In this document: positions 8,666-45,830 of the stretch, piece after piece | Position numbering within the stretch: the first letter of the stretch is position 1 | Layout of the letters: each line of letters starts with the position of its first letter | From: Marsupella aquatica | Lineage: Eukaryota > Plantae > Marchantiophyta | DNA length: 64,000 nucleotides | Reading direction: 5' to 3' | NCBI GenBank assembly: GCA_973895155.1 | Contig: OZ316896.1 | Coordinates: 18,588,754 to 18,652,753, forward strand | Position numbers and translations under genes: made by a program | Notes under the pieces: generated by a model | Database searches by the model: none | Told to the model about the DNA's origin: nothing | Seen by the model: only the letters and a program-made list of their open reading frames with translations

Positions 8666-8780
8666 GTACGACTAGGGAGCTACACGACCAGCGACCAGCT
8701 TGCAGTTACCCACGGAAAGCACTTATAGACGGTGCAACTTATGCACGGTAATCTGTACAACGAGAGATGGAGGAAAGGAA

Positions 8781-8974
8781 AGGTACACTCCTTCGTATAA
8801 AGGTAAGGTACACTCCTTCGTGTAAAGGACAGGTACGCTCCTTCGTGTAAAGGAAATGTACGCTCCTTCGTGTAAAGGACAGGTACGCTCCTTCGGATAA
8901 AGGAAAGGTACACTCCTTCGTGTAAAGGACAGGTACGCGTGTAAGCGAAAGGTACACTCCTTCGTGTAAAGGAA
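8781..8974. repeat. 25-bp minisatellite (AGGTACRCTCCTTCGTGTAAAGGAM, about 8 units) upstream of ITPA, followed by (GA)n
   Basis: Directly visible head-to-tail units, one internally deleted. Confidence 0.92.
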
Positions 8975-9261
8975 AGGGCAGAGAGAGAGAGAGAGAGAAA
9001 CAAGAATGGCATTCGGGAACTCCGAAGGGACGACGGACGGCAGGAACTGGGTACAGAGTACAATCGGCAGCACCGAGAGAGAGAAGCGCTTTCCTTGGAG
9101 TGATTCTCGGCTGCTGCCAATTTTCTCGATTGATTCGGCTAATCCCGGACTGACTGACTCCCCGCCACAGCTCCATAATTCGCCTCTGGAAGAATTTTTT
9201 CGAGGTGGTAGCGTGGTTCTTGCCAGGAATCGCACCTGGAAGCGCGTCTGGTGGAAGGCAC

Positions 9262-12079
9262 ATGGCAATCAGCAGCGTGAGGATGCAGCTCTCGAGCCCG
9301 GTCACGTTTGTCACAGGCAACGCCAAAAAGCTGGAGGAAGTGAAGATGATTCTCGGCCAGACAATTCCGTTCCGGAGTCACAAGCTCGACTGTACGCCCT
9401 CTCTCGTTCTCTCTCTCTCCCTCTCCGTTTCCCCTGTCTCATCGTTCCTCTCCGTCTTGTTCTCTGCTACTGTTTTCGTTGATTGGTTGATTTTTCCTCT
9501 ATGTCGGTTTTGTCGTTCTTTCTCCCTTACCAATTCTTCACATCTTTCCAATCTTGTGAACTTTCGCAAAGAGATCCGTGCTCAATAACCAAGAAAGGTC
9601 CTCTGAGGCGCAGACGCATCAAAAGTGATGATGGAATTGAGCATCACTTACTTCTCTATTCCTTTTTTGTTTCTCTGTCTCTACTTGTTGCTGTTGCAGC
9701 TCGTGCTGCTTGATTTAGAGAGAATGCGCCTTCCGTAGCCACCCCTTCCAGAAATGAACAGTACCTTGCATTTACATGTCTCAGTGCCCAATTTTTCAAG
9801 GGTGCCACAAAGGGGTTGAGTTGAAAAGCATCCATTTCATTGATTTGTCACTCTTCGCTTGGAATGGCAGCGAGCAGTTCATTATGTTATTCGTAGAAAT
9901 GTTGCTTCGACGTTGAAGGCTTGCAACGGGGAACAATTAGAAACCCGACCTGGCCTCGATTGGAATTCCGAGCTTTGAATTTGGAAACCCGCATTCTCGA
10001 GTAAATTGAGTTCCACACGGAAGAGTCGTCGTTGTAAACTCGTACTCGTGATCTACTCAACGGATCCGCAGTCCATACTATTCGCACATGAATTCGTCTT
10101 CTTCACGCTTAAGCCCATGACTTTTCCCTCCTCGGTCACTGACCCACTGAGCCTCCACCATAAAGAAAGGGGTAAGGGGAAAGTTGTGATTGTCTAGGGC
10201 CTTGATAGAGGGCAGTACCCCTGAATTATGTATCCTGGGCATTCTAATTTGGCCCTGGTCCAAGTTGGCTTGTAGTAGGAGGTCTTGGGCAGTATTTGAT
10301 GTCGCGTGGTATTGTCACGCTCTTGTTCAGTGCCAGAACTCCAAGGGGAACCAGAAGATATATCAAAAGAAAAGGCACGGCTTGCAGCGAAAGAGGTGTG
10401 TTGACCAGGTGGTCCAGATGGACTGAGCTGTCATCGGGCATCTTCTTTGGGCATTCCATTGTAAACTGCGCAATGAATGCTAGCATTCACAGAGCTTACG
10501 GTTCCATTATATATTGCGTTGTTTGTGCTGCCAATTCTCATTGGAGACTGTTTGTTTATGTCAAAGATCAACGGTCCAGTGCTCGTTGAAGACACTTGTC
10601 TCTGCTTCAACGCCTTAAAAGGTCTCCCAGGTGATGTTCTTTCGTATATATGATGCTATATAGAAGTCCTTGTGCCAATTTGTGTAAATCTTGGACATGG
10701 ACATGTTCTGGACAGAACCAGAACATGGGTAGACGTACACTCGACCGCCAGAAAAGCTTTTTGTTCATTTGCCCTTTTCGGTCTATCAGTCGTGTCTTCA
10801 AAAGGTGTTCAAAATTTTGTACAGATAGAAGCATAGACTGTCCTTAATTGTATGTTCTTTCCGGACATCATTCTAAGATGGACTTTTCTTCTGGCCTGGC
10901 AGGGCCTTATGTGTAAGCTCCCAAACCTGAAATTGGAACAATTCTTACACACTGCATGTTGAGAAGGAGAGGGTAAGAGCAAGGGCAATGGATGTTAGGA
11001 TGATATGTTAAAGGAATGCTTGCCCCAGGAGTATCAATTCTACTAAGGGGGAAGATATGCAGACCCTTCATGTCCCTGCCATATTTGTGTAATTTCCAGT
11101 ATCAGTGCCTGTCAATTCAGGTAAATAATTACATAGAAGATCCGTTTGTTAAATCCACTTTTCTATCAAAAATGTTTTCTTAGTACTGCAGTGAGCCTGA
11201 GCTAATATGCTTTTAATGACTGCTTCCTTGGAAGTGCAGAAAGTGGTTCCTGCAAAAGACAGGCCATGAAGGTATACCTTTGATTTCACCGCTGAGTGGA
11301 TATGTTATCCATGCCGAAAATATTGGTCTTGAAGTTGGTCTGAAGATTTTATCAGGAAAATGCTGATGAATTTAAGTGGCTTGTCGCAGATTACTGAGAA
11401 AACTCTACTTTGGGAATCAACAGAGTCATGTGTCAGTGGATCGTCCATGTGCTATAACTGACCGTTTTTCTCAACCTTGTATATCAGGGCTGAACAATCT
11501 TTTGGCAGCATATGACGACAAGTCAGCATATGCTTTGTGTGTATTTTCCCTGGCTCTTGGACCTGGAATGGAGCCTCTTACTTTTATTGGGCGAACTGAG
11601 GTGCTTTTCATTCCCCAGATACCTCCTGTTCTAATTGAGGAGTTGCTGAAGGTTTATTGTTCTCTTTTGTGTTACTTGCTCGTGGTTCTCATGTGGCACT
11701 TTCCGCAAAGCAGGGGACAATAGTTCCACCCAGAGGGCCAGGCGAATTCGGATGGGATCCAGTATTTCAGCCTGAAGGTTCTGAGTTAACGTAAGAATCA
11801 TGACACGGCATTGTCTTTGCACCCTCTTCACTGAGTGTCCTCTTTGGATGATCTATCACGGAATATTTTAGATCATTCATAGTTGGAGTGCATCAGTGTT
11901 CATTGTGCAATAATTAAGTGAATCCTATCTTAAGTTATATATTTTCTGCCCCCGTGCCTTGCAGGTTTGCAGAGATGCTGAAAGAGGAGAAGAACAAAAT
12001 TTCACATCGTCGTAGAGCTTTAGACAAAGTTAGGGAACATTTCTATGCAAATAATTATGCGGTTCAAAAGCCTGTCTAG
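9262..12079 (+). CDS. ITPA: Inosine triphosphate pyrophosphatase (HAM1/ITPase); exons 9262-9391, 10331-10395, 10567-10630, 10903-10912, 11240-11271, 11488-11600, 11714-11790, 11965-12079
   Basis: Spliced product has [62 protein letters not shown] and the KNKISHR signature. All introns are GT-AG and in phase; TAG at 12077-12079. Confidence 0.95.
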
Positions 12080-18219: not shown

Positions 18220-20156
18220 TCACCACAGCTCCACTTCCCTGTCAAATATCCAGCTCAGCTGTCCAGTTTTGGGAGATTTCTTTGCCTTGGAAGACGCCCG
18301 TTCTTCCAACCTTCTAATCCGTTGTCCCAGGTTGCAGACGAAATCCTGAGCTTTCCTTCCTTCTCCGGACAGCCCTGTGACCTTTTCCACATTCCATCTT
18401 TGCACGAGGTGCTCAATGATATCGGCGTAATCTTTGGCTGTGTAAGTACCCGTTCTCTGGGCGACCATCGAGAATTTGCTGAAAATATCCTGATCTTTTC
18501 CGTCGAACATCAAGTGTGCAGGCATCGTAATCCTCTTCCTCATCATGTCCCCGAAGGCTTGCATGGCACCGTCAGGGTCGACCTCAAAGAGCTTCTCTAC
18601 TATTTTGCAGTATGCAGTCTCGTGTCGTCGCTCATCAGCAGCAATTAGTCCACAAATGGTAGCCAGCTTGTCATCACCATAGCCCTTTGCGTGGCGTGCA
18701 GTGTTGCCGTGAGATATGAATGTGGCTCTCTCCTGGAACGAAGTGTACACAAACCCTAGGTAGGGATTATTCTCAGTTTGCGGGTCCTGTTCACAGAACA
18801 AACGATCAAAACCCGTAAGAAAGCTGGGCTTCAATCAAGGAAGAAACGATGGCAACGCGTCATCCCGGACACGTTGCGCTGACGGAGGCCTACTCAACTA
18901 AACCAGAAGATAACGGAATACATCGTTACAGTCATACTTCATGGAAGGCACCCACCCAAGCAAACATTTTCAACACAGAACATGACGAACTTGAAAGTCG
19001 ATTCTCCAACATCGATGTTCAACGAGGAGTTGCTTACCATTCCTGAACCGATCAAGTATTGAATAGTCTTCTCTACAACCCTCATGTTCACCCGGCCGGT
19101 CAGATATAAATATTTGTTGAGCAAATCGCCATGCCTGTTCTCCTCGGCTGTCCATGCACGAGTCCACACTCCCCAGGGTGTGAGACTAGCACCCGTCTCA
19201 TCCTTCGTCCCATCCAACGTATTGAGCATGGTCTGGTACGTCGGAAGAGCTTCCTCGGTGATCATATCGCCAACGAGGACAACTAAATAATCATCAGGCA
19301 ATTCTGCAGATCGTGCCCGCAACTCCTTAAGCTCATCATAAAACCCCTCGGAGGAGGACTCGGGTAGATGGTCCGCTGGCTGCCAGCACTTTTCCACAGG
19401 TTTCAAGTATGGCAACAAGGTCTGCTCCGCCCAGTTGTCGAGAGATTTCACTACCTCTAATCTCTCTTCGGTAATTGAATGAGTAACCTGTGCATGGAGC
19501 TCCCGGGGAATATAAATCCCGACATCTCTGCAATAGATGACATGCAATTATAATTCAAGAACGCCATTAAAAAAGCTAGGAGAAAGTTCGCGCCAGACAT
19601 GCCTGCAAAGCACGAGTAGACTCACCACATGCAATCACCCACCTAACACCAGTTTTATAATATCTTCATCTTTTGTGAGTCCTTATGTAGAAGTACGTTC
19701 GACCATGCAGTTCAGGAGAGATGGACACGATACAACAGATGTTAAAATAGGGAATCGCTGAAATTCTTTCCGAAGTTGCTGCTACGTTATTGAACTCCTC
19801 TTCGGTTGGAGTGCCAGTAATACACATACCATTAGGCCATATGATGCAAACACCAGGGCTAACTGATTCACCTGAAAAGGAAGTCTAAACAGGTAAAGAC
19901 TAGGGGAAGGGTAGAGTCCAGAAGTAGGACCAATCGAGACTTACTTCACTTTAGGGGATACAGTAGCAGTCATTACAACATTTCCCCGGCCCAGTCTGCG
20001 TAATTGAAGAGTTCTGTCGACTGCGGGCCTGAGATTCAAGCTCGCCACACGAAACGATGATGTTGGAACTCCCGAGCTCGCCGAACAGGATGCATGAGCA
20101 GCAGTGCAGGGACCGTTTGTTAGCAAGACCACTCCGGGAACAGCCAGTGCCGCCAT
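18220..20156 (-). CDS. SAD: Plastid stearoyl-ACP delta-9 desaturase; exons 20156-19945, 19527-19038, 18786-18220
   Basis: Transit peptide, then [31 protein letters not shown], the diiron motifs [12 protein letters not shown] and DERRHETAY, and [27 protein letters not shown]. Three in-phase exons. Confidence 0.97.
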
Positions 20157-26630: not shown

Positions 26631-28759
26631 TCCCTCTAGCCACTCTAGTGCCCAGAGTCACCCAGACCCAGACGCCGGGTTAGGAATCAACGCTCTGACT
26701 TTTCTCATTTACCGTAGTGCCATACTGCGCAATAAAAAAATCATTGGTATAATTTTGGACTAGAAATTTGGATATTTTGGGTTCTTGTGAAACCTAAATT
26801 TTCCACGTCAATTTTAGAAATATTTTAAGTAGTTTGAACATGATGCTCCCATGGACCACAAGTTTGGTCTTTAGAAAACTCATGAAACACATTTCCCAGA
26901 ATGACTTTGATTGTTATAACTTGATGCTCATAAAATCAAAATATATTTTAGTTTAGTGGAATACCTCAATTACACTTCCATGAAAGTGGCAGTGAATTTT
27001 TGGCCACTTTGGATGAGTTTTTCATCATGCACTGTTGCGGGTATTCTAGATTAATTTTCATTGTGTTAATATTAAATATTTAGGTTTGTGTTTTTTTAAT
27101 GTCCTCCTTATCTAGTTGCCTTAAAAATTACCTTAAGACTCATAATCATCAAGTTCTAAACCCAAAACTCCTATGAACCATCAAAATGTGGTCCATGAGG
27201 GCATTGTGTCCAACATGGAGGTTCATGTGGGTTTCACTTTCAAGTATTTTGTTGTAAACATTTCCTTTTCATTGTCTAATTATTTTTTAAATGAAAATAG
27301 GAGAGTAATATTCTGGCAGTGAATTTTCCTAAAATGGAAATAATCAATGTTCTTCGAGAACCAGAAAATTTGTTACAACTATTTGGGCACATAGCCTCTA
27401 GGGCTATGGCATGGAACAGTTTTGGGGGATCAAAACTACAGTAGGTGGCAAGTAAAAATCCATCAATGTCAGAGATTATGGCCAGTTGAAACATTTTAAT
27501 TAAACTAGGATTATAAACATCATGAGGACTGGGTTGGTGTACCTCATGATGTTTTTAATTCCTCAGGGTTGGTGATTTTTAAACATATCGGTAAAACAGA
27601 TGGCGACTCATGTACACCAACCCTGAGGAAGGTGGTGAGTGGGTGCTTGGCTCGGTTTTAGTCCCAAATGAACGTAATATTCTAGATGATTTGGGGATAA
27701 GGAAGGAAAATAAGGTCTGGTACAGCATGAAGGAGAGTGACTAATTTTGTGCGATAACCAAAGAGGAGGGAGGTTCATTTGTGCAGACAGTGTTCTTGTG
27801 ACCAAAGCCTTCTTTGGTGAAGTAAAGTTATAAACAATAAAGGCACAATATGCGGGACAATATGACTAACTTGATATCTCAAGCTGGGTCTTTTGGAGTT
27901 GTAGCTATGGAGACCCCATACTAAGGCACAAAATGTAGCGAAGGACAATAAGAGTTAACTAACCTGGAAAGAACTCTTTCAGACAATTGCCAAATACCAA
28001 CCCAAGGCTCATTGTGGGAGGCTTTAAAATGCCAGAGGACCCTAGTGACCAGGAACTGGATTAGGGGTTGCAACTTCCAACCCACCACTCCTAATGCAAA
28101 CTTGGTTTTGTATTTATATTCCAAAGGGGGTCAGATTATTGTATCAATTAACCATGTTTGAATAACCTAGCCTCAAATTTAATCCAATTTTTTTTATCTG
28201 GATACATTTTCCTTTATTTTTAGTTACCTTAGTTTACTAATCGGGACAAGAACATAAAATGTGGTGTATTGGTCTTTAACATGATTGGCACATATGTTTG
28301 TCCCAAGAGCTTGAATGCCCATTCTTTGAATGAACCTGTGACAAAAAATATCCATGATCATCATTTGACAAACATCATACTCATGAATTTTTCCATCCAC
28401 ATGGTGGCCATAGAGTTATGGTCTAGATGCTTCACTCTACAAACCTAGACCCAAGCTGTAACTTGGGGTTCATATCACAAGTTGCTACCTTCTTAGATTA
28501 TTACTACAATGCCACCTTTTTGTCAGGGGTCATGTGACATCTTATGGCCTTCAGTTGTTACACGGAACAATTTGATGATTGACATTGCCCTTGGGTTAGT
28601 TTTGTGCACCCTTTATGTTTGGCCTTCTAGGGCACAGCCCTTCCCGCAGGTTCCACCCCACCCTTGCCTCCCTATTTTCAAAGTGCCCTCCGCCCCCCCA
28701 AACACTCTGCTCTAAAAGTCACATGAACTATTCGGAACCAAAAGTCACAGGAATTATTC

Positions 28760-29064: not shown

Positions 29065-30070
29065 CCCCGGCACTTCGGCCCACATTTACGAGAGAAGCTC
29101 ACCTCCAAGCTCATCCAGGATGGGAGGGCACTTGCAGGTAACTTAATCAGGGACGGAATCTGTCATTCCGTCTGGCGTTTTTTTCTTGCACCCCTAAACT
29201 CTGCATGCCATTGGGTCAGTTGCACGTTGCAGCCGGGCCACCAGCATGTCGTTATTAAATAAATGAGCAGGAGAATAATATCTCATCGCCCCAGAATGCA
29301 ATCTAATTGCGTTCATCTTTTTGCCTAGCCCAAGCTCCTCCCTGTGTACAAAGTTTCAGGGTTGACTGTCAACTCTGCGAAGTTGTAACTTTGAGCATGA
29401 GAGAGACGCCAGTTGAATGTGTTTGTCAAGTTGCTCTACTTGTGAGAGCTTCCTGACAGCTCAATTTGATTCGGACTGAATGTTAATAAATGTGGATTGT
29501 TCTTCAGTGGCTGACATGGGTTTGTCGTGGCTGTAACTGCTGTGGGGACTATTGGCAAGGGTCTTATCCGGGATGGAACAGGATACGTAACATTTCCAAT
29601 GAAGTATGAGTGAGTTGTATTTAGACCGTTCAAGGGGGAAATATTGGAAAGTGTTGTGACTATGGCCAACAAGGTGATCTTCTACAGCATGATGCTTGGT
29701 CCTACTGATAGAGCTGCGTTTTCTGTGCACTTCGAAATGTGTGATTTCCACCGCGCAAAGGAAAGCGCCTAGCTTCTTCTAATCAGTTTCATTCAGAAGT
29801 GATTGGACCATCCATTAAGGCCTTCTACGTCTTACTGTGACAGATGGGTTTCTTTGCGGAGGCTGGACCTGTGCAAATCTTCGTCTCGAATCATGTAAGC
29901 TGTAAATTCCAATAATTCAACACGAAACGAACCCTAGCTTTTTTATTTTCTTTCAAAACAGGAAGCTGTATGTCCTTGTTCAACTTGATTTCACCTCATC
30001 TGCTGCTGAATTGATCCACGTGTTTCGCTAATTTTCTCTCATAAGTGTTAGCTTGTAATCTGTGTTGCAG
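29065..30070 (+). pseudogene. NRPB7: Truncated NRPB7 pseudogene (part of exon 1 to the intron 3 acceptor)
   Basis: Near-identical to 42044-43052 including introns. Lacks the start codon, has a 1-bp deletion (GATGGGAGG vs GATGTGGAGG) and an in-frame TGA (TAT GAG TGA vs TAT CAG TGC). Exons 4-6 are absent. Confidence 0.93.
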
Positions 30071-31899: not shown

Positions 31900-33877
31900 C
31901 GACCTATCTGCGGTGCAGTTGCCGCTCCTGCGTCCTCCCTCTGTCACCCTGTCTTCCCTCCCCAGCTTGAATGTTGGTTAACGCGGCCACACACAGGAAT
32001 TGTGGATGTCCTTGCTTAGTCAATTTCTGGTCGGCTGAGGACGAGAATGACTAAATTTTCTCTCTCTCGCGGCCCATACATTCAGGAATCGTCAGGCCTT
32101 GAAAGTCAATTTCTGGTCTCTTTCTTTCTGCTAATAACCATCTAATCATTACCATCGTCGTCATCAGCAGTAGCAGCAAAGCACAAATAACTTGATTGAT
32201 TCAGCTCGCGAGCGGATCTTCTACTTACAAGAAATTCAAGGGATGAACCCGCCTCCGCCTCCGCCTCCACCTCCTCTGCCTCCGCTCCTCTGAGCAGCTC
32301 TGTCCGCCTCCCTACTCCCTGACGAGTCTTTCTTTCTTCCCTACGCAGCGCTCTGGGTAAAGAGCTTCGTGGTCGGCCCGGCTGTCTTGTTCCTTCTCTC
32401 CTAAATCCTAATCACCTCAGATCGCACACTGAGGGCTCTGGAACCCCCTCTCCCTGACTGCTTGTCCCGTCTCTCTGCATGGCAATGCGTCGCTGCCGGC
32501 CCTCTGTCCGAAACTGAGCGGGCTTTACAAGAACCACACTTTCTTTTTAATTTTTCTGGGCGATCTCGTTAGTTCACATTTTTGAATTTCCTGGACGAGA
32601 TCTCTACTAGTTCCACGTTTTTTAGTTTTCTGGACGAGATAGCTACTGTACATGTAGATTACATTTATTATTTTTCGAGACGGAGATTTCTCTGCCACCA
32701 TTAGTTTCGTGGTACTTTAGTGGGTCTAGTGAGTATGGTGGCGACACTGTGTGTGTGCGATGTGGGTGCGCTTTAATTAAGGAACGACACTTTTATTTAT
32801 TTATAGACTACCGTAGCTCAATATCCGTGCTTTGAACAAAAGATGACGTTACTCTGAAAAACAAATGTCATCGATCTAAAAGATCTTTTAGAAACGATGT
32901 TGTAATAATTTGATGCTCATAAAATCAAATTATTTTTTAGTTTAGAGGAGTATGTAAGCTACACTTTTAAGAAAGTGAGAGTGAATTTTGACCACTTTGG
33001 TTGAGTTATTCATCATGCAATGCTGCGGGTTTTCTACTAGATTAATGTTCATTGCGTTATACGAAATATTGAGGTTCTATCTACACTATAATTTCTGATC
33101 AAACTCTACAATTCATGACGTGCTCTGCACACTGAAGCCATAGTTCATAATTTCTCTGGTAACCATGCTTGTGACTAGTATAAGGAGTCTGCTTATAGGG
33201 AGCTTTCTCTTGTGCACAAGCATAGGAAGTTGGCCTAATGAGACAAATAATGGGCAGTGTAAAATAATGGGTAGATCTCAAATTAAATATTTTTTGGGCT
33301 TTACCATTAAGTGACACTCTAGCATTGGGGTACTGTCTCCCAACATGACTCTTTTTGTTCTTTGACAATGTTTTATATTAGCATGAGATGAGTGTAGATG
33401 ATATAGCCCAGAAGAGTCTTCCCACCTGAGGTCCAAAGCTCATCCTCTCCAACAGCTTTTCTTGGAAGCTTGGAAGCTCCATTCCAAATAGTGTCTTGCT
33501 TTGATGAGGATTTTTGCTTAAGGGGGTGGGGGCTGCAAAGTGTTAAACAAAACCAGGTTTGCATTAGGAGTGGTGGGTTGGAAGTTGCAACTGAACGAAT
33601 TCAAAGCTGAATCGTTTACTTGCTTAATGGAAATGAATTACAATGCACAGCGGAGCCGCACTAATAGCAACTCGACTGAGGAGTAAATCCCGTGAAACAA
33701 GGGGGCACAATTAATCTACACCGTAAGTCACTTAGCCCTAAATCTAATAGATAACTCAAGGCGGCAGAAAAGAATGCTACAGGAAATAATGAACAGCAGA
33801 CACCGAGACGACGAGCCACATCCTAATACCCCTTCCCGTCCGGTGATTCATAGAATTTGCAAAGAGAGTAGGGGGCA

Positions 33878-34764
33878 ATGGATATGATGAGGGTGTGCTG
33901 GTGCGTGTTGTGGCTAATCATAGGAGCACTGAGAGTAGTCGTGAGAGCGTTCCTTGGTGGAATAGAAAATTTATTCCAGTATGTACAGGCCCGAATATCT
34001 CTCGAACAAGATAATGTTGGGAGATCAGTTGTGTTGCAGAAGAAGGAGCCATTGGGAGAAGAAAGTGAGAAATTCTTGATGGCTGCAGCATCATCGGTAA
34101 TGGTAGCCAGAAGCACGAATCAAGTGCTCCTATTTGATATGCTATGTTGTACACGTTGCTGGGTATGTTTTCATCTTGGTGAGCTCAGCCGAGATGGAAC
34201 AACACTCCAAGGATATCTCAGAGAGGACGCCAAGATGGTTAGAAAGGGCACCAAGATGGTCAGAGAGGCAGTCGACATTACTAATTGTCCGAACCAAAAC
34301 AATGTCGGAGTGGACGCCGACATAGGGTTTGACTATGGGTGTGAATTAATTAAGTCCATGTCGGCGGCGTCGCTGAGTTTTGGGCACAGACTGATATCAG
34401 TGACTGATGAAAGTCACTGATAACTGATGAAGTTGTGTACCCCGCGGCGCCGGCTCCTCGGTATTTCAGTGATTGCACTTCCAAGCGGACGTATTATGCT
34501 GTGGTAAGAGGGTATGCTCCAGGTCTATATGATTCCTGGGAAGAGTGTGAGCCACAAGTAAAAGGCTATCGTGGGCAGGTGTACAAATCCTTTACGTCAA
34601 AGAGTGAAGCCGAACGCTATCTGCAGGATAGTTTACAATGAGCACAGGATCACTTGACTCATGGACATCGATTCAGGAGCATAGGTCAGGACAGCTTTGG
34701 GAACCAGCAATACAGATGTAAATATTGCTTGGAGATGTATCGTGATGCTACACACTATGAGTAG
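33878..34764 (+). pseudogene. Antisense accessory ORF inside the Copia element: hydrophobic N-terminus, RNase H1 N-terminal (caulimovirus viroplasmin) domain, His/Cys tail; broken by one frameshift and one stop
   Basis: ORF 33878-34420 joins ORF 34435-34641 by one frameshift near 34410. The second ORF reads YYAVVRGYAPGLYDSWEECEPQVKGYRGQVYKSFTSKSEAERYL. Past the TGA the frame continues HLTHGHRF...YRCKYCLEMY to TAG 34764. Confidence 0.8.
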
Positions 34765-37206
34765 ATAGGCGAACTAGAGTAGATCTAAAACTCTTGTAAG
34801 GATTTTAAGCCAAATTTCCACCGTGGTAATGCATTCGAGAGTATATCCGTCGGCTGCTCTGCTATGGAAATATAATTCAGAGTAACTTCTCCTTCAAGTA
34901 CTCGTTCTCAAATATAGTGATGTTGCAGCTCAATATGCTTGGTTCGAGCATGGAAAATGGGATTCTTTGCCAGATTGATAGCTCCTTGATTATTGCAATA
35001 CAAGTTGAGATGAGAGTCTTGCGATGTGGGTCTGTCTGCTTTAGAGACATTGGACAACACTTCTTGATTCTGGCAGTTAAGAGTCACTTGCGCATCTGTA
35101 GTAACATTCAATTCCTGAAGAAGGCATTTGAGGAAAACTGTTTCTCGTGCACCTTCTGATAGTGCTCAATATTCTGCCTCTGTTGTGCTTTGTGAGATGG
35201 TAGATTGTCGTTTGCTGGACCTTCACCTCGTCAATTTATAGCCGTGACTAAGCTGGACCTTCACCTCGTCAATTTTTGAGGAAGCATTGCCTGTAATAAG
35301 AAGATCATCAACGAAGAGTAATAACAATGCAATTCCCCCCCCCCCCCCCGCGTTGATGAAATAGAGATTAGAGTTTGCTGCACTTTTGACCCAGCCTAGA
35401 GAACAAAGAAAGCAGTCTATGTCTTCGTACCATGCCCGGGGAGACTACTTGAGACCATAGATGGAGCGATTGAGATGGCAAACAAGATGCTCAGAACTAG
35501 GACCTCAAACCCAGGAGGTTGCACCATGTAAATGATTTCTTTGAGTTTACTGTTTAAGAAGGCGGTGATGATGTCCATTTGAGTCATGGGCCAGCCATGT
35601 GCAACAGCAAGGGCGATGATCAGACGAATAGTAGACCACTTGATTACTGGTGCAAAAGTGTCCTCAAAATCCACGCCAGACCACTCTTAATACCTTGAGC
35701 TACCAAACGGGCCTTAAGTCGTGTATGAGTGGGATTAATCTCTGGCTTAGCCGTATACACCCATCTGTTAGATATAGTTTGTTTACCAGGCGGAAGGGCC
35801 ATTAGCACCCAAGTGTCGTGCTGAATTAAGGAATCAATTTCCTCTCTCATGGTAGCAGCCCAACCAGGGTCAAGATGTTCTCATCCACACAGTCAATAGT
35901 CTCTACCAGGCAGACATCTGGGGCGGATGCTGAGGACAAAATCTTGTCACAAGCGGACTGGTAGTTCCCAAGCACGAGATGGCTGTCTATGGATTACCAG
36001 AGGTAGATCTACAGGGGGAGTCGATGAGGGAGAATTAGGAGGACTCAAAGCTGGAGGAGTAGAGGGAGGCTCAATATAAGTAGTTGAATTGTCTGGTGGG
36101 CTATTAGGAAGATCAGGGTCAAGAGTATGGTCAGAGATAATTTATGTACTGAGAGGAGTTGGATCAATGCTTGTGCTGGGTTCTGCTTCCAAGGTTTGAA
36201 TAGGATCATTGGAAGTGATCAAAACGGACGTGGGCTGTGATGGTATGAGCAACTGTCTGTCTATTTAAGGCTGGTTGGGAGGATTTGCTGGGTGACTATG
36301 ACTGGAATCATACATTTGTGACTCATCAAAGATGACATCTCTGCTAACATAAATCTTTCTTTTAGTTGGCTCAAAGCATTGGTAAGCCTTGGATTTATCA
36401 TCGTAGCCAATCAAATTAGTGCGAATGGATTTGGTTGAAAGCTTGTGCCGCAGTTCAGTTGGAATGTGGACGTAAGCTAAACATCCAACAACATATAGAT
36501 GTGATAAGTCGGGCTTTACCTTGTATAATTGCTGGAAAGGTGTGGAAGATACCAATGATGATTGTTGAGCACATAATTGGCCATTTTGATTAGTTCCTCC
36601 CAAAGGTAAGTGGGGAGCCCAATTGCAATTTGCATGCTTTGTGCAGCTTCAAGTAAAGTATGGTATTTCCATTCCGCAACACCATTCTGCTGAGGCATTC
36701 TTGCTGTGGTGAGCTGTCGCTTAATACCATGGTTGTCATAGAATAAGCAAAATTCTGTTGACAAATACTTGCCTTTCAAAAATTCAAAATCTGAGCGGAT
36801 GCACTGGATTTTTTTGCTGAATTTGTTTTCAACCATTGCCCTAAAGATCTTGAACTGGGCAAAAGTTCCACTCTTAGCCTTCAAGAAATATACCCAGGTG
36901 AAGCGAGAGAAATCTTCAGTAAAAGTTAGCAAGTATTTTGCACCGAAGATAGATGGAACCGCGAATGGTCCACACAAGTCAATGTGAACCAGTTGTAGAG
37001 GGCCACTAGATCTGCTTGTATATTTCTTAGGAATGCGTTCCCGATGCTGCTTTCCCATGACACAACTGTCACAAACGTGTTTTTCATACTGTAGTTTGGG
37101 CAGCCTTGCAGCCAAACCCTTTGCTGACATGTTGCAGATTCGGTGAAGGTTTACATGGCTGAGTCTACGGTGCCATAGTTGAAGTGGAGAGATATCAGTG
37201 CAACAT

Positions 37207-37541
37207 TGTTGCGTCCCACTAGCTCTCTGTAAGAAACCGTCAACTCCGGACTAGACAGCAATGCGGAAACATGAGAGAGACTCACTCAATCAGATGTTAC
37301 ACCGACAAGACACCCCGAGTGGAGAAACTTTTGAAGGCTCCATAGCAAATGAGAGTACATGTGAAGAATGAGGGAGAGAGTTCTCTCCCTCCAGCCTATA
37401 CCCCCCAAGGGGGCCAAAATGAGTGGGCCTAAACTAAGCAGATCTTATCCTAATGTAATCTAGGATTAACTAACCCTAGTAAGGCCAAACTAACTAAATC
37501 GGAAACTCAAGTCAATTCCTAACACTCTCTTCTTCAGCCAT
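37207..37541 (-). mobile_element. Nested truncated LTR element (single LTR TGTT...AACA 37207-37524 plus adjacent polypurine tract) interrupting the Copia pol between protease and integrase
   Basis: Removing it restores an in-frame host sequence (...LYRLDNSPVQNTSLCSEVHQCCTDISPLQLWHRRL). CTCTCTTCTT (minus-strand AAGAAGAGAG) abuts the LTR. Confidence 0.8.
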
Positions 37542-40456
37542 TGGTGTACCTCAGAACAAAGACTGGTGTTCTGTACAGGAGAGTTGTCAAGACGGTATAG
37601 ACTGCTGCTTTTGTCTTGAGTGGCTCTAAGGAAGATCTTGTTGGGGTCTTCCTTATCCCCGCCTTATCCAGTACGTAGCCATGGCTAGAATTGAAGTACA
37701 CTCCATGACCTTCATCAGCTAACTGCCCTACTGACAAAAGATTTCGAGTCATACCAGGCACGTACAAAACTTTCTTCACGACTTTATTTCCACTAAATTT
37801 TGTACTGCCCCTGCCAGCGACAGGAATGCGTGCCCCAGAAGCAATAGTTACACTTGAGCTAGAAGCATACAGGACTACACAACTAAGAGTGTTCCTATTA
37901 CCAGTCACATGTGTGCTGGCACCTGAATCTATTAGCCAGTCATGACCAGCGTGGAACTCAATGAAGTTTACCTCTAAAGTACCATTGTCAGGACTATTAG
38001 GTTCGCACTCATCGGCTTCTACTGCTACTGCCACGTTGGCTTGATGCATTCCCTTCTTGATGTCTGCGTGTTTGGTCTGGAGCCTCTTGATCTGGCTCTC
38101 GATCTTCTTCAAGCACTCGCCTTCCCAGTGGCCAGTCTCTTAGTGTTTGTAAAGGTGGAGTTTCTCCCTCTGCCACGAGCAAAGTTCCTGCCTTTGCCCC
38201 GTCCTCTGAAAGAACTCAAACCAGAGTTTCCACGATAAGCGTTGTGGGTCATCACCAGTGCTTGTTCCGTGTCTTTCCCTTGTAGCTCATGTTGCTTCTC
38301 CTCAGCCTCCAAGTGTCCAACCAAATCTGAAAAAGTCATGGATGGAAACTAATGCACTAAGGTACCGAATGAGGTGATGAAGGGTTTCCAACTAGCTGTC
38401 AGTCCCTTCATGGTCGTGCGCATGAGTTCTTTATCCTCAATGGTGAAGTCAATGTCTGCCAGTTGCATGACCAATACATCGATCTCACAAATATATTCTT
38501 CGACGCTACCTCCTCTGGACATGTGCACCTTTGCCAGTCTCTCTCTCAGTATGAGCTGCTTACCCATAGCTGCTGATTCAAAGCAAGACTTCAGCTGTAG
38601 CCATATTTTCGCAGGGTCGTCAATGTACTTCTTTACAATAGGAATAATGTGATCCTTGACGGTCATGGAGAAAATGTAGATAGCTCGCTCCTTCTTCTCC
38701 TCAAGCTTCTCTGCAGAAAGCTGCACGGGATTCGATGGGTCAGGGCTGACCATCTCCCGCCAGCATTTGTCCTTGCAAAATTGTCTCTCAAACTTGAAGG
38801 ACCAGACAATGAAATTCTTGCTGCCATCTAGCTTGTCCTTGTCAGAATAGATGAGCCCTTTATCTACGTCGTAGTGAATGCTGTGGGCTAATTGAGAAGC
38901 GCTGCCATGTGTGGTCTGTTGTTGGCTGTCACATTCTGTTGCGAGCTGCTGGGCGTCTGCTGCGAGCTGCTAGACGTCTGTTGCAAACTGCTGGCCATTC
39001 TGTCTCTCACACAAATCTTGTTGGGAGCTTCTCACCGATTCAATGTGTGATGACGACCTTGCTCTGATACCATGAATGAATTCAAAGCTGAATCATTTAC
39101 TTGCTTAATGGAAATGAATTACAATGCACAACGGAGCCGCACTAATAGCAACTCGACTGAGGAGTAAACCCCGTGAAACAAGGGGGCACAATTAATCTAC
39201 ACCGTAAGTCACTTAGCCCTAAATCTAATGGATAACTCAAGGCGGCGGAAAAGAATGCTACAGGAAATAATGAACAGCAGACATCGAGACGACAAGCCAC
39301 ATCCTAATAGCAACCCCTCATCCAGTTCCTGATCACTTGGGTCCTCTGGCATGCTAAAGTCTCCCACAACGAGCCAAGGGTTGGTATTTGGCATTGTTTG
39401 AAAGAGTTCTTTCTGGGTTAACTCTTATTGTACTTCACTACATTTTGTGCCTATGGGGTCTCCATAGCTACAACTCTGATAGTACCCAGCAGGTTAACTC
39501 TTATTGTCCTTCACTACATTTTGTGCCTAAGTCACTACATTTTGTGCCTAAGTATGGGGTCTCCATAGCTACAACTCCAAAAGTACCCAGCTTGAGATAT
39601 CAAACGTTAATCACATTGTACCTTTATTGTTGATAACTTTACTTCACCAAAGAGTGCTTTAGTCACAAGAACACTGTTAACACAAATGAAATCACTCCCT
39701 CTGCTTTGGTTATGGCACAAAATTAGTCACTCTCCTTCATGTTGTACCATACCCTATTTTCCTTCCTTAGCCCCAAATCATCTAGAATATTACATTATTT
39801 TGGGACTCCGGCCCAAGCACCCACTCGCCACCTTCCTCAGGGTTGGTGTACATGAGTTGCCATCTGCTTTACCAATATGGTTTAAAATCACCAACCCGGA
39901 GGAATTGATGATGTTTATAATCCTAGTTTTATTAAAATGTTTAGAGTGGCCACAATTTTGGACATTGATGGATTTTCACTTGACACCTACTGTAGTTTTG
40001 ATCTAAGGAGACTTTTGGTTGCAAAATCAGACCCGAGGTGCAAGAGAGATTTACACGCCTCCCCAAAAACTGTTCCATGCCGTAGCCCTAGAGCCTATGT
40101 GGCCCAAATAGTTTAAACAAATTTTCTAGTCGAAAGCATTCACATGACAAGTTGTTTGCATTGAGCCTCCCAGAGTTTGTCTGCCCTCTCCCTAGCTTCT
40201 GGGATGTGCGCAACAATCTCTTCTTTTGTACTCCCATTGAAGCTTCTTGGAAGGGCGTTAGCAACAACTGTAATGGAGCTTTCTTCAAGTTAGTAGGCCA
40301 CCTTGTTGTGAGGATCTGGCCACCCATTCATTGCAAGCTGGAGAACCAATGATGCTCTGCTAGGTGTTTACAGACCAATGCAACCTCATCTCAGATCATC
40401 CTTGATTTATATTAGAAAGGGGGTCAAATTATTGTATCAATTAACCATGTTTGAAT

Positions 40457-41116
40457 ATATAGCATGTTCACCTTGGAACATGCTTCATTTTTTGTTTTTT
40501 TAGTGAAATGTATGTGATGTAATTTTTTGTGGCAAATATAAACACTTTTAGTGAAATGTAGGTGATGTAATTTTTTTGTGGCAAATATAAACGGGACATT
40601 GACTAGGAAGACTTACAATCTATGATATTGAAAGGTTGTGCACATAAGGTACAAGAGTAAAAATACACATATCAAGAAAAGTAATAATGAAGAGTAAAAG
40701 TTTAAGTCTATGGTATTGGGTTGTGTACATACTGTCTGTACAGCCTAGAGATACTTATGTACTTACCTTAGGTAATGACACTCAATGACACTCAAATTAA
40801 TTAAAATCATAAATTTAGGACACAAAACCATGAGTAAAGACACAAGGAGTGCATTTTATTTAGATAATTTCTTCTTCACTCATGACAATAAGGGCTAAAA
40901 ATTGATAACAAGGGCTAGAAATTCAGTGAGCTTTGTTAAAGAGTAAACAATCTTAAATATAGCAAAGATTAAAAAGTTTAGAGGGGTGCCAGAGTAAATT
41001 CAAAATCTAAACTATACAAGGGATGCACCTTGGTAAGACACATTGAATTAAAAATACATAAGAAAAGAAGTTTGAATAAGACAAAATACTGGAAGGTGGA
41101 TTCAACTTATAGCAGT
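40457..41116. mobile_element. AT-rich non-autonomous insertion (~650 bp), inverted copy of 44940-45830
   Basis: Absent from the matching site in copy 1 (~28163). Long reverse-complement match to 44940-45560. Confidence 0.8.
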
Positions 41117-42001
41117 TTTATAATTTTTTATCTGGATACATTTTCCTTTATTTTTAGTTATGAGTTTCCTAATTGGGAAAATAACATAAATGTGGTGTAT
41201 TGGTGTTTAACCTGATTGGCACATATGTTTGTCCCAAGAGCTTGAATGCCCATACTTTGAATGAATCCATGAAAAAAAACATGCATGATCATCATTTTAC
41301 AAACATCATACTCATGAATTCCTCCATCCACATGGTGGCCATAGAGTTATGGTCTAGATGTTTCACTCTAGAAACCTAGACCCCGGCTCTAGTTTGGGGT
41401 TCGCCCTTTATAAACACTATATCACAAGTTGCTACCTTCTTAGATTATTACTCCAATGCCACCCTTTTGTCACTGGTTATGTGACATCTTGTGGCCTTGT
41501 TACATGGAACAATTCGATGATTTCCATTGCCCTTGGGTTAGATTTGCGCACCCTTTATATTTGGCCTGCTAGGGCACCGCCCTTCCCGCAGGTTCCACAC
41601 CACCCTTGCCCCCCAAGCACTCTGCTCCAAGAGTCACATGAACTGTTGGTTCTCCAATGTGACTATCTCAGGGGTCTAGGAGTGTCCCCAGTTAACCCCA
41701 TGACAACAAAAGTAACATTATTTGACCCCCCAAAAGTGGCAATCCAGAAAAACCATACTGGATGTCGAGTAGCGTTTCTGTAGCTCTCGTTGTTGAGTCA
41801 TGTGCTCACCTCTCGTTCTGCTCTCTCCTTCTCTAACCTCTTCTTGAGCTCTCTCCTTGTCCTGGTTATGTTGGTCGAACAAGCAACTGAAAGAAATGTA
41901 AAGCATCATGCCCGGCTTCGTCCCCTGTCCTGTGCGGTTCCATCCTGCATGCGGGCGGACAACAATTTTGTGAGGGAGAGCCCTCACTTTGCTTGGGAAC
42001 C

Positions 42002-43598
42002 ATGTTTTTCCATATATATTTGGAGCGCAATATGCAGCTGCATCCCCGGCACTTCGGCCCACATTTACGAGAGAAGCTCATCTCCAAGCTCATCCAGGAT
42101 GTGGAGGGCACTTGCAGGTAATTTAATCAGAGACGGAATCTGTCATTCCCCGTCTGGCGTTTTTTTCTTGCAACCCTGAACTCCGCATACGATTGGGTTA
42201 GTGCACGTTGCAGCCGGGTCACCAGCATGTCGTTATTAGATAAATGAGCAGGAGAATAATATCTCATCGCCCCAGAATGCAATCTAATTGCGTTCATCTT
42301 TTTGCCTAGCCCAAGCTCCTCCCTGTGTACAAAGTTTCAGGGTTGACTGTCAACTCTGCGAAGTTGTAACTTTGAGCATGAGAGAGACGCCAGTTGAATG
42401 TGTCTGTCCAGTTGCTCTAGTTGTGAGAACTTCCTGACAGCTCAATTTGATTCGGACTGAATGTTAATAAATGTGGATTGTTCTTCAGTGGCCGACATGG
42501 GTTTGTCGTGGCTGTAACTGCTGTGGAGACTATTGGCAAGGGTCTTATCCGGGATGGAACAGGATACGTAACATTTCCAATGAAGTATCAGTGCGTTGTA
42601 TTTAGACCGTTCAAGGGGGAAATATTGGAAAGTGTTGTGACTATGGTCAACAAGGTGATCTTCTACAGCGTATGCTTGGTCCTACTGATAGAGCTGCGGT
42701 TGTGCACTTCGAAATGTGTGATTTCCACCGCGCAAAGGAAAGCGCCTAGCTTCTTCTAATCAGTTTCATTCAGAAGTGATTGGACCATCCATTAAGGCCT
42801 TCCACGTCTTACTGTGACAGATGGGTTTCTTTGCGGAGGCTGGACCTGTGCAAATCTTCGTCTCGAATCATGTAAGCTGTAAATTACAATAATTCAGCAC
42901 GAAACAAACCCTAGCTTTTTTATTTTCTTTCAAAGCAGGAAGCTGTATATCCTTGTTCAACTTGATTTCACCTCATCCGCTGCTTTCAAGAATTGATCCA
43001 CGTGTTTCGCTAATTTTTTCTCATAAGTGTTAGCTTGTAATCTTTGTTGCAGTTAATACCAGATGACATGGTCTTCCAATCGGGTGATATTCCAACTTAT
43101 GAAACGTCTGACGGTTCAGTAAGTCCTCTTGCTCCTTGTGAACACTGTTGCATGTTCCTCCAGATTTCACTTTAGGGTTTGCATAATACCCTATTTCAAA
43201 AGAAACTGAATCGAGTCAGATATGTGGATTCAACGCCAGTTGGAACTGTCGTGCTCTGAGCAATTATAAAACTGGCGATGGGTTTTGGCGTAGACAAAAC
43301 CTGCCTTGAGGATCTGATAAGTTGTTGACTTGGTGTTACAGGTTCGGATACAGAAGGATAGCGAAGTTCGTCTCAAGATTGTTGGTACCCGTGTCGACGC
43401 AACTGAAATAGTAAGTGATTCACCTCGTCACCGGGTACCTTTTGCATGCAAAAGTGCCACTCCATGTCCTAGTTATACAGTTTTGTTCTCATCTTGCTAA
43501 TGCCATTTACGTTGGTGCCTTTGTTTCCTCAGTTTTGTATAGGAACTATCAAGGATGACTTTTTGGGTCTAATTGGCAATCCTGGTGGAGGAGCTTAG
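42002..43598 (+). CDS. NRPB7: RNA polymerase II subunit RPB7; exons 42002-42117, 42489-42654, 42821-42871, 43053-43118, 43342-43410, 43533-43598
   Basis: Spliced product MFFHIYLERNMQLHPRHFGPHLREKL...EGTCSGRHGFVVAV...[43 protein letters not shown]...[29 protein letters not shown] is canonical RPB7. All introns are GT-AG. Confidence 0.97.
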
Positions 43599-43999
43599 GA
43601 TTGTGCGTAACCCGTGCCACAACTCAGAACGAAGTAGCAGATGCAATAATCTACGGTTTAGGGTGATAAGCCTTAGGTCCCCACTAGATAGAAATGCAGG
43701 ATAGGAGAATTCGAGAATTCCAGAGAATATTGATATTCCAAAGATGAAAGACACTAGGATAGAGTCTGCACATCATTTACTCTCAAGTGACATTCTCTGT
43801 AACATATGGAAATTTTGTGAAGAATGAACCGAATGGGGCTCAGCTGTTGCAGTAGCATCCCCTTTTAATTTAGTGGGATTAGCGATTCCATTAGTAATCA
43901 TGTTTTGTAACATGTGGAAATTTCTATTAAGAAATCAAAACCCAACGGGGCTCCGCTGTTTGCTGGGACATTCCGAGTCACAACACTGCTGGATGTTTC

Positions 44000-44900
44000 T
44001 GTGTATAAAATGTGGAAATTTCCATCAGGAACGGTGACGTTATGTGGAAATTTCCATCAGGAATGGTGACGTTATGCGCCTCATGGGAGTTAATTTACAA
44101 TACTGTCACTATTTCTTTTGTATTATGCGTCTCATGGGAGTTAATTTACAATACTGTCATTATTTCTTTTGTATTTACAAAATGCCACGGTTTCGGTAAT
44201 ATAGTTCCCCTGATTACCTTCATGTTGTTCTGAAAACAACATGAGTCAGAATTGTTCTCATGATCATTCTTCGAACAACGAACAAAAAACAAGGCGATCT
44301 TTGAACTACGAACAAAAAACAAGGCGAGCTGCCTTATTGTCGTCCTGCTTACTCAGTTTAATGCGTTGGGGGTTTTAATGTGTTTTGGCAGTTTTGTTTT
44401 TCCATTGTTACTTATGGAAGAGTAGTCTTTGAGGTGACGGAAGTGTTCATTTATTTCAAGACTTGCCTGAGTACCTAGTTTTTGAACGAAAATAGAGAAA
44501 AAAAACCTTGCAGAAAAAAGGATTGCAGAAAAGGATTCCATGCTATTTGTGTTCCATGCTATTTCTTGTTCACTTTTGCCCTATCCTGATTTTTGCCTAA
44601 ACCCATTTTCAGTGATGTCCTCAGTTGGAGTCCCAGTCCTCTTGTCTACACCCATTTTCAGTTATCTCCTAATTTGTTTTTGTCTTCATCCATTTTCAGT
44701 TATGTTCTCAATAGGAGTCCCTTTTCTAGAGCCTTCACTCTTGAGTGCTCCCTGCTTTTTTGTCTACACCCATTTTTGCTCTCATCCCTGTTTTTTTGGC
44801 TACACCCATTTTCAGTTATGTCCTCAGTTGGAGTTTGTCTACACCCATTTTTGCCTTCATCCCTGCTTTTTGTCTACACCCATTTTCAATTATGTAATCA
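44000..44900. repeat. Cluster of short tandem duplications and a degenerate minisatellite (core GTCTACACCCATTTT)
   Basis: TGTGGAAATTTCCATCAG x2, CTCATGGGAGTTAATTTACAATACTGTCA x2, CGAACAAAAAACAAGGCGA x2, and CTACACCCATTTT about five times in 44640-44890. Confidence 0.8.
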
Positions 44901-44939
44901 GTTGTAACCCTATAGTACTAAAGTATGATGATTGGTACA

Positions 44940-45830
44940 CATGCTATATGGTGAATCCACCTTCCAGGATTTTGTCTGTCTTATTCAAACTTCTTTTTTT
45001 ATGTATTTTTAATTCAATGTGTCTTACCAAGGTACATCACTCGTATAATTTAGATTTTGAATTTATGCTGGCACCCCTCTAAATTTTTAAATCTTTGCTA
45101 TATTTAAGATCATTCACCCTTTAACAAAGGTGAGGGAAGAAGAAATGATCTAAATAAAGTGCACTACTTGTGTCTTTAAATTATACTCATGGTTTTGTTT
45201 AAGTTCTACTCATGTTTTGTGTCCTAAATTTATGATTTTAATTAAATTTGAGTATCATTACCTAAAGTAAGTACATAACTATCTTTACTGGTGTACAACA
45301 TAATACCATAGACTTAAACTTTTCTTGTTCATTATTATTTTTCTTTGCATATGTACTTTTACTCTTGTACCTTATGTGTACAACTTTTCAATATCATAAA
45401 CTCTATGTCTTCCCTTTTGCATGTGTATTTTTACTCTTGTATCTTATGTGCACAATTTTTCAATATCATCAACTCTACTTCTTCTTGGTCAATGTCTTGT
45501 TATATTTACCACAAAAATTTAGATCACCTACATTTCACTAAAGAAACAAAAAATGAAGCTAGTTAAATCTACGTCAAGTTAATGCGCCCCGATTTTCCAG
45601 AGGCGCCATACACTGCGCCGTCCACTCCCCGTCCACTCCCCAATGCTGCTGCCCGCTCCTGCCCACTCGGGCCCGAGTTTGCTAGAACATAAACCAATAC
45701 TTCAACATTTTGTTGCCAACTTCGGCAGCAGCATCGGGGACGGGGACGGGCAGAGTACGATGCCCCGGGAAAGTGAGGTCGCATTAACTTGACGTAGATT
45801 TAACTCACAATGATGAACATGCTATATAGT
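44940..45830. mobile_element. Second copy of the AT-rich insertion, itself interrupted by a MITE
   Basis: Reverse complement of 40457-41116. Both ends carry ACATGCTATAT. Confidence 0.75.
45561..45805. mobile_element. MITE / fold-back element with perfect 26-bp terminal inverted repeats
   Basis: AGTTAAATCTACGTCAAGTTAATGCG at 45561 and CGCATTAACTTGACGTAGATTTAACT ending at 45805, with imperfect pairing further in. No clear TSD. Confidence 0.88.

What the first reader, a model, noticed from the sequence alone, without database searches (positions are those of the whole stretch)
33878..34764. Copia retrotransposon carrying an antisense accessory gene with an RNase H1 hybrid-binding/viroplasmin domain and a His/Cys tail
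Seen: between the pol stop (~34780) and the 3' LTR, on the strand opposite gag-pol, an ATG about 50 bp inside the 3' LTR opens a ~295-codon gene broken only by one frameshift and one TGA (plausibly a CGA deamination). It has a hydrophobic N-terminal segment (VCWCVLWLIIGALRVVV), a clear YYAVxxG..PGxYxSWxEC..QVxGY.G..YKSF.S..EAxxY domain, and H-x2-H-x-H...CxxC. It ends tail-to-tail with pol. Established: this domain is the N-terminal dsRNA/RNA-DNA hybrid-binding domain of eukaryotic RNase H1 and of caulimovirus P6/TAV, a silencing suppressor and inclusion-body protein. Antisense ORFs are known mainly from Gypsy Retand/Tat elements, with other domains. Inference: an element-encoded factor, expressed from an antisense 3'-LTR promoter, that binds dsRNA or RT hybrids for anti-silencing or replication. 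I am not aware of this architecture being described for Copia.
Basis: partly seen in the sequence, partly recalled or inferred. Interest (0 to 1): 0.85.

Follow-up and report, generated by a model that had tools for sequence, protein, structure and literature searches.

The report
Copia retrotransposon with backwards hybrid-binding gene
A decayed plant jumping gene carries, on its opposite strand, an extra gene for a small conserved protein that has the nucleic-acid-gripping domain of RNase H1 but no cutting domain, which likely helps the element handle its own RNA-DNA copying intermediates.

Summary
Real, but the anatomy needs correcting. A complete Copia element (237-nt LTRs, 5-nt target duplication, gag-pol on the minus strand) carries an antisense gene between pol and the polypurine tract. 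It encodes an RNase H1 hybrid-binding domain (PF01693, E 2e-18) and an H-x4-H-x16-C-x2-C tail. The gene is about 192 codons, not 295. The 'frameshift' is a 318-nt piece of another repeat: five contigs in three runs join straight across it in frame. Other copies read through the stop.

Uninterrupted relatives exist (131-232 aa, 48-78% identical over the C-terminal module), including three dispersed copies in the liverwort Calypogeia fissa. That species also holds the closest named pol relative. Divergent copies show 12 silent of 16 listed changes (4.9 expected, P=1e-4), while close copies decay neutrally. The gene has therefore been under selection and is not a one-off capture.

Not shown: expression, binding, or that the distant relatives sit in Copia elements. 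Anti-silencing is the weaker reading, because this domain is dispensable for silencing suppression in CaMV P6. Best guess: a non-catalytic helper that binds reverse-transcription hybrids. Nine literature searches found no such architecture.

The parts
33587..33591 (.). 5-nt target-site duplication, left copy
   Evidence: single copy at the empty paralogous site 27960-28111
33592..33828 (-). 3' LTR, 237 nt, begins TA and ends CA in element sense
   Evidence: K2P 0.035 to the 5' LTR
33829..33841 (-). polypurine tract
   Evidence: sequence
33878..34125 (+). antisense gene, N-terminal part (82 codons): hydrophobic 19-mer (KD 2.06), then amphipathic helix (muH 0.57), then linker
   Evidence: only a weak match to the family N-termini (hhalign P 0.0095; no HMM hit)
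34126..34443 (.). 318-nt foreign segment interrupting the gene in this copy; likely the end of an LTR of another, more abundant element
   Evidence: joints, loose ends at both borders and several-fold higher summed contig depth; LTR identity inferred from flanks that diverge just past a CA end
34444..34764 (+). antisense gene, C-terminal part (106 codons plus stop), with one premature stop at 34639-34641
34492..34620 (+). RNase H1 N-terminal hybrid-binding domain (PF01693, Cauli_VI)
   Evidence: family profile hits 1qhk E 4e-11 and 3bsu E 1e-5; model of a relative superposes on 3bsu at 0.7 A over 45 columns
34651..34728 (+). H-x4-H-x16-C-x2-C tail, predicted zinc site (helix, beta-hairpin, helix)
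   Evidence: metal binding not tested
34785..38139 (-). pol (protease, integrase, RT, RNase H), broken by stops, frameshifts, a ~150-codon deletion near 35210-35260 and a nested insert
37228..37524 (.). 297-nt solo-LTR-like insert (TG...CA, 5-nt duplication) in pol
38136..38993 (-). gag (PF14223), with stops
39061..39072 (-). primer-binding site starting TGG (tRNA 3'-end type; initiator-Met assignment recalled, not from a call)
   Evidence: sequence
39073..39309 (-). 5' LTR
39310..39314 (.). 5-nt target-site duplication, right copy

Best explanation
This is a dead copy of a Copia lineage, likely of liverworts, whose antisense extra gene encodes a ~190-230-residue protein with an RNase H1 hybrid-binding domain and no cutting domain, which likely acts as a replication helper that grips the element's RNA:cDNA hybrids. 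Shown: position and strand, the domain and its predicted fold, the absence of a catalytic domain, the conserved His/Cys tail, presence in several copies, and selection on the antisense frame. Inferred: transcription from a promoter in or next to the 3' LTR; clustering or membrane anchoring through the N-terminal hydrophobic and amphipathic helix; zinc binding by the tail; and binding of duplexes in or near the particle. That binding would shield or organise the intermediates, supplying in trans the grip that cellular RNase H1 carries in cis. The layout (N-terminal helix, disordered linker, hybrid-binding domain, zinc site) resembles a miniature caulimovirus P6 by analogy only. The confidence given is for the helper mechanism; that it is a selected element-borne gene I put at about 0.85.
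For: Domain and fold. Tyr29, Trp43 and the aromatic at 58 of the human domain are kept in the family profile (numbering anchored on PMC7657459 passages, which name Y29, R52, A55, K60; roles of W43 and F58 recalled). Human and fly domains bind hybrid more tightly than dsRNA. In-frame joint in 5 contigs of 3 of 4 runs. Variant copies bridge LTR to gene (X1 record 3) and gene end to pol (X1 record 7). Divergent copies: 12 silent of 16 listed differences, 4.9 expected, P=1e-4; shifted frames give 4 and 2. Uninterrupted relatives at 48-78% identity over 100 columns. Three C. fissa copies on two chromosome-scale contigs, one visibly decayed. The window integrase, P0110 and the C. fissa pol P0115 form a clade (support 0.92, 46-sequence FastTree).
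Against: No expression or binding data. The genomic context of the distant relatives and of the divergent contigs was not seen, and P0115 lies on a different C. fissa contig from the three accessory genes. Human K60, a DNA-backbone contact, is Ser in nearly all family members, and K59 is Thr in C. fissa. Close copies differ neutrally (2 of 13 and 3 of 13 silent) and several carry their own indels, so no recently active intact copy was demonstrated. The N-terminus of the window gene matches the family only weakly. No TATA-like match was found on either strand of the LTR beyond one loose motif. Most Copia elements replicate without such a protein (established knowledge).
Confidence: 0.45

Rival explanations
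1. Silencing suppressor: the protein sequesters element-derived dsRNA from Dicer-like enzymes.
For: The P6 dsR motif binds dsRNA and hybrids in vitro (PMC5902531). [quoted passage not shown] Loss of K60 could lower DNA-strand contact. A sunflower Tekay extra ORF was modelled as DRBM-like (PMC11728184 passages).
Against: The dsR domain of P6 is dispensable for RNAi suppression. Human and fly domains bind dsRNA weakly.
Confidence: 0.2
2. Host-factor adaptor: as in P6, the domain binds TOR or 60S ribosomal proteins to boost translation of element RNA or to block autophagy of particles.
For: In P6 the same domain binds TOR, eL18 and eL13 (PMC5902531). Structural neighbours of the model include many caulimovirus P6 proteins.
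Against: The low-rmsd matches to P6 cover only 46-65 columns, about the domain itself. Copia gag-pol is one frame in close relatives (P0110) and needs no reinitiation.
Confidence: 0.15
3. Nuclear targeting factor: the protein tethers the integration complex to R-loops or protects element R-loops in chromatin.
For: The domain recognises hybrids. Other antisense extra proteins are nuclear or predicted DNA-binding (PMC7264820; PMC11963269 passages).
Against: A strongly hydrophobic N-terminal segment (KD19 1.2-2.6 in 7 sequences) fits membranes or aggregates better than chromatin. No link to integrase was shown.
Confidence: 0.1
4. Passenger: a host or viral gene captured once and carried along, with the apparent selection inherited from host genes.
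For: The context of relatives was not seen. Close copies evolve neutrally. A fungal Helitron carries a captured PF01693 gene (PMC4289320 passages).
Against: No introns, yet antisense orientation. The only named relatives are three dispersed, partly decayed C. fissa copies. No named conserved host orthologue appeared among 103 hits, and the tail was absent from all non-family proteins among the best 150 of 8671 hits over 1.84 billion representatives.
Confidence: 0.1

Closest known systems
Antisense extra ORFs between pol and the 3' LTR (aORF-3R): maize Grande gene23, rice RIRE2, Silene Retand, bean PvRetro13, Botrytis Boty (PMC7264820, PMC11963269)
   Same: Position, antisense orientation, presence in several copies, conservation
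   Different: Retand is Gypsy and mostly encodes TRP28 or SMC-like domains in a 2.9-6.6 kb region; the other named examples are also Gypsy-type (recalled). Here a compact Copia has a ~0.6 kb gene with a hybrid-binding domain and His/Cys tail.
Cellular RNase H1 N-terminal hybrid-binding domain (human 3bsu, yeast 1qhk; also bacterial RNase HI)
   Same: Sequence and predicted fold of the 44-residue domain; key aromatics kept
   Different: No RNase H catalytic domain; K60 mostly Ser; an added N-terminal helix and a His/Cys tail not seen in any RNase H1 held
Caulimovirus P6/TAV (viroplasmin)
   Same: Non-catalytic use of the same domain in a reverse-transcribing element; a similar order of N-terminal self-association region, dsR domain and zinc finger (PMC5902531)
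   Different: P6 is about 420-540 aa and viral; no similarity was shown outside the domain; here the gene is antisense in an integrase-bearing Copia
SIRE env-like eORF-3'F of Copia (PMC6317226)
   Same: Extra ORF in the 3' internal region of a Copia element, with a hydrophobic segment
   Different: Those are sense-oriented and heterogeneous; this one is antisense with a defined nucleic-acid-binding domain
Helitron-captured capE of Pleurotus ostreatus (PMC4289320)
   Same: PF01693 domain carried by a transposon
   Different: Fungal rolling-circle element; described as a captured gene

Membership tests
Ty1/Copia LTR retrotransposon | gag, protease, integrase, RT, RNase H in that order | tested here: met
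   Pfam and tblastn with P0110 and P0129; RNase H by tblastn only, no Pfam hit on that piece
Ty1/Copia LTR retrotransposon | two LTRs, target duplication, PBS, PPT | tested here: met
Ty1/Copia LTR retrotransposon | TG...CA termini (usual, not obligatory) | tested here: not met
   both LTRs begin TA; tomato TARE1 does too (PMC3701649, abstract in listing)
aORF-3R antisense accessory gene | antisense, between pol and 3' LTR | tested here: met
aORF-3R antisense accessory gene | present in most copies of the family | tested here: inconclusive
   several variant copies carry it and two bridge it to LTR or pol; short contigs cannot give the fraction
aORF-3R antisense accessory gene | conserved under selection | tested here: met
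   12 of 16 silent in divergent copies; 48-78% protein identity; close copies neutral
aORF-3R antisense accessory gene | transcribed from its own antisense promoter | not testable with these tools
   needs stranded RNA reads
RNase H1 | N-terminal hybrid-binding domain | tested here: met
RNase H1 | catalytic RNase H domain (DEDD) in the same chain | tested here: not met
   no RNase H Pfam in P0004, P0007, P0107, P0232 or P0002-P0009; only ~45 residues follow the domain
Caulimovirus P6/TAV | dsR (PF01693) domain | tested here: met
Caulimovirus P6/TAV | homology over the rest of the protein | tested here: inconclusive
   low-rmsd matches cover 46-65 columns only
Caulimovirus P6/TAV | encoded by a pararetrovirus genome | tested here: not met
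   lies inside an integrase-bearing Copia element with a target duplication
Retand TRP28 antisense ORF | PF04195 domain in a Gypsy element | tested here: not met
   no PF04195 hit; Copia domain order
Zinc finger (HHCC type) | four conserved ligands that bind zinc | tested here: inconclusive
   ligands conserved in 8 of 8; no significant Pfam match; geometry and binding not measured

The most novel reading that the evidence does not exclude
A liverwort Copia lineage has independently evolved a miniature viroplasmin: a self-assembling, zinc-containing, hybrid-binding protein made from an antisense gene, which builds or shields cytoplasmic reverse-transcription sites as P6 does for caulimoviruses. 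It would be an antisense accessory protein of a plant retrotransposon with a definable biochemical activity.
Probability: 0.3. Interest if true: 0.85.

Novelty: new variant of a known kind. Interest (0 to 1): 0.62.

Why it matters
The function of antisense extra genes in plant LTR retrotransposons is an open question, largely because their products resemble little that is known (PMC7264820). This one carries a small, structurally solved nucleic-acid-binding domain with mapped contact residues, so binding, localisation and partner tests are direct. It also suggests that a Copia lineage and caulimoviruses both took up the same domain without its nuclease. At 190-230 codons it falls below the 250-codon cut-off of the REXdb survey (PMC6317226), so such genes may have been missed systematically.

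Tried and rejected
No RNA holder was listed among 5 runs; this is no evidence either way. The metagenome scan gave 80 loci and the viral scans 0 and 14 loci; none of the 94 loci matched Copia pol, and the tail HMM gave one 15-residue chance-level hit. The ESM Atlas gave no usable hit twice. Rfam gave two matches far below gathering score; the CTGATGA repeats near 34400-34430 lie in the insert and matched no ribozyme family. An HMM of five relatives' N-termini did not find the window N-terminus among 1327 six-frame pieces. The full-length model was poor (pLDDT 59.6). The wide fold search found only the yeast domain (Z 5.0); the tail was not searched alone, so no fold claim is made for it. The homodimer-plus-zinc job gave no verdict. 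The accession-neighbour test in C. fissa was uninformative: the pol found is on another contig. A sense ORF in this region was rejected: longest stop-free runs are 67-93 codons. The '295 codons with a frameshift' reading was rejected. A second joint (34112 to 34449, one X2 contig) is out of frame and is read as another decayed copy. Earlier-finding look-ups by sequence and place returned nothing. Literature searches. A supplement search of PMC6317226 (5 files, 17,418 characters) found no mention of the domain, but its domain table may not be held in full.

Full report
THE ELEMENT. Two 237-nt direct repeats at 33592-33828 and 39073-39309 differ at 8 sites, all transitions (K2P 0.035). They are flanked by a 5-nt duplication, and a paralogous repeat at 27960-28111 shows the unoccupied site with one copy of those five letters. 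On the minus strand lie a primer-binding site, gag (PF14223), protease, integrase, an SH3-like region and RT. RNase H is seen by tblastn with a relative, followed by a polypurine tract at 33829-33841. This is a complete Copia element. It is dead: stops and frameshifts in gag-pol, a ~150-codon deletion and a nested 297-nt solo-LTR-like insert. The closest pol found is an unnamed Logan protein (72% over the integrase); the closest named one is from the liverwort Calypogeia fissa (58%). In a FastTree of the window piece plus the top 45 of 109 long-matching hits (120 listed), these three form a clade with support 0.92. The host has intron-bearing plant genes; that it is a liverwort is an inference.

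THE OBSERVATION. The + strand ATG at 33878 lies 50 nt inward of the 3' LTR, past the polypurine tract. PF01693 matches 34492-34620 (E 2.1e-18). One stop interrupts at 34639-34641 and the frame ends at 34764, about 20 nt from the pol stop. Minus-strand frames here are closed (longest 67-93 codons).

THE CORRECTION. Contigs of four runs were laid on 33400-35400. Five contigs in three runs (X1 1, X2 2, X4 2) join 34125 to 34444 with ten other letters between. The skipped 318 nt has loose ends at both borders and much higher summed depth: X4 2090-4028 against 110-236 over the domain. The tool warns that depth is no copy number, so this is a hint only. By length arithmetic the joined form is one frame of 192 codons. 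No target duplication is seen, so capture during break repair is likelier than transposition (inference). All listed X2, X4 and X5 depth, and half of X1 depth, reads a sense codon at the premature stop. One further X2 contig joins out of frame, and several close copies have indels of their own, so many copies are decayed, each differently. Variant copies bridge LTR to gene (X1 record 3, 10 differences) and gene end to pol (X1 record 7). No contig spans a whole gene. The five listed runs come from three studies, and one may be the source sample.

SELECTION. Two divergent copies (about 80% alike) cover the domain. The tool listed 11 of 19 and 7 of 18 of their differences; I assigned rows to records by matching depth. 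Of 16 distinct sites, 12 are silent in the antisense frame against 4.9 expected when the same base changes are placed at random (P=1e-4); shifted frames give 4 and 2. Close copies give 2 of 13 (C-terminal) and 3 of 13 (N-terminal; one search showed only 40 rows, 98 hidden), as expected for decay after insertion. The context of the divergent contigs was not seen.

THE FAMILY. A profile search returned 103 proteins among 2611 candidates of 64-317 aa. Eight (P0002-P0009, 106-224 bits) stand above a background led by bacterial and other hybrid-binding domains; P0008 and P0009 are short fragments and P0008 lacks the tail. A search of 1.84 billion representatives added one more, P0232, among the best 150 of 8671. 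A tail HMM built from six members hits 14 of 381 held proteins, all family, including three not used to build it and not their cluster mates (P0003, P0232 and the window). Identity over 100 C-terminal columns is 48-78%. The only named members are three C. fissa proteins: two 204-aa copies differing at 8 residues on one 9.1-Mb contig, and a decayed copy (74%) on another contig. Dispersed, partly decayed copies and no named orthologue elsewhere fit a mobile gene, but their flanks could not be read. Full-length members share a plan: a hydrophobic segment then an amphipathic helix, a low-confidence linker, the domain, and H-x4-H-x16-C-x2-C (8 of 8). The window N-terminus has the same physical pattern but only a weak sequence match. 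No catalytic RNase H domain is present.

STRUCTURE. A model of P0003 (pLDDT 72; 77-90 over residues 11-100) matches the human domain 3bsu at 0.7 A over 45 columns and caulimovirus P6 and other viral proteins over about the same span. The tail is predicted as helix, hairpin, helix, and was not searched alone. Against the human domain, Y29, W43 and the aromatic at 58 are kept, K59 mostly, and K60 is mostly Ser (Y29 and K60 contact DNA per PMC7657459).

MECHANISM. Shown: a selected, non-catalytic hybrid-binding-domain protein encoded antisense by the element. Inferred: it is made from a promoter at the 3' LTR, gathers through its N-terminal helix, and grips RNA:cDNA hybrids, helping or shielding reverse transcription (0.45). 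Rivals: dsRNA sequestration (0.2), TOR or ribosome adaptor (0.15), R-loop targeting (0.1), passenger (0.1). The silencing analogy is weakened because the P6 dsR domain is dispensable for RNAi suppression and binds TOR, eL18 and eL13 (PMC5902531).

WHAT IS KNOWN. Antisense extra ORFs at this position are described for Grande, RIRE2, Retand, PvRetro13 and Boty, with function unknown (PMC7264820, parts 1-2 of 3 read). Retand ones mostly encode TRP28 (PMC11963269, passages). REXdb counted extra ORFs of at least 250 codons in 582 Copia elements, names sense ORFs in SIRE as the characteristic case, and does not mention Marchantia in its main text (PMC6317226, passages; supplement search blank but possibly incomplete). 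PF01693 appears in 2 papers of the library: a fungal Helitron capture (PMC4289320, passages) and a CaMV TAV study (PMC7102451, abstract only; search). Also read as passages: PMC11728184, PMC13547354, PMC7657459. Nine searches found no Copia or other LTR element with this domain; subscription papers are not covered. An earlier unchecked note of this scan reports a different antisense gene in a fungal Copia (e1-7559699), so the position alone is not unique in Copia.

VERDICT. A real and apparently undescribed variant of a known kind. The gene model is corrected to about 192 codons, selection is supported, and function is untested. Interest 0.62.

Noticed in passing
window 33592-33828 and 39073-39309: Both LTRs begin TA instead of TG, as reported for tomato TARE1.
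   Followed up: partly
window 37228-37524: 297-nt solo-LTR-like insert with a 5-nt duplication inside pol.
   Followed up: partly
window 35210-35290: About 150 codons between RT and RNase H are missing in this copy, beside a short direct repeat; a loose end in run X4 suggests that other copies keep them.
   Followed up: partly
window 40482-45559: Inverted arms of about 630 nt (71% alike) enclose copies of 28190-28672 (87%) and 29065-30070 (96%), including an Rpb7-like exon (PF03876, E 0.0018, below cut-off): looks like a Pack-MULE-type gene-fragment capture.
   Followed up: partly
window 27428-28111 and 39310-40003: The Copia inserted into one copy of another repeat; the unoccupied copy lies inverted 5 kb away.
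   Followed up: yes
window 18220-19547 and 9154-9585: Intron-bearing host genes: an acyl-ACP desaturase (PF03405, E 1e-80) and a Ham1/ITPase-like first exon (E 0.023).
   Followed up: partly
window 8269-8992: Tandem arrays with 81-nt and 25-nt units upstream of the Ham1-like gene.
   Followed up: no
P0231-P0374: Many unrelated proteins carry 2-8 tandem copies of the hybrid-binding domain; one is from the gut fungus Anaeromyces robustus.
   Followed up: no
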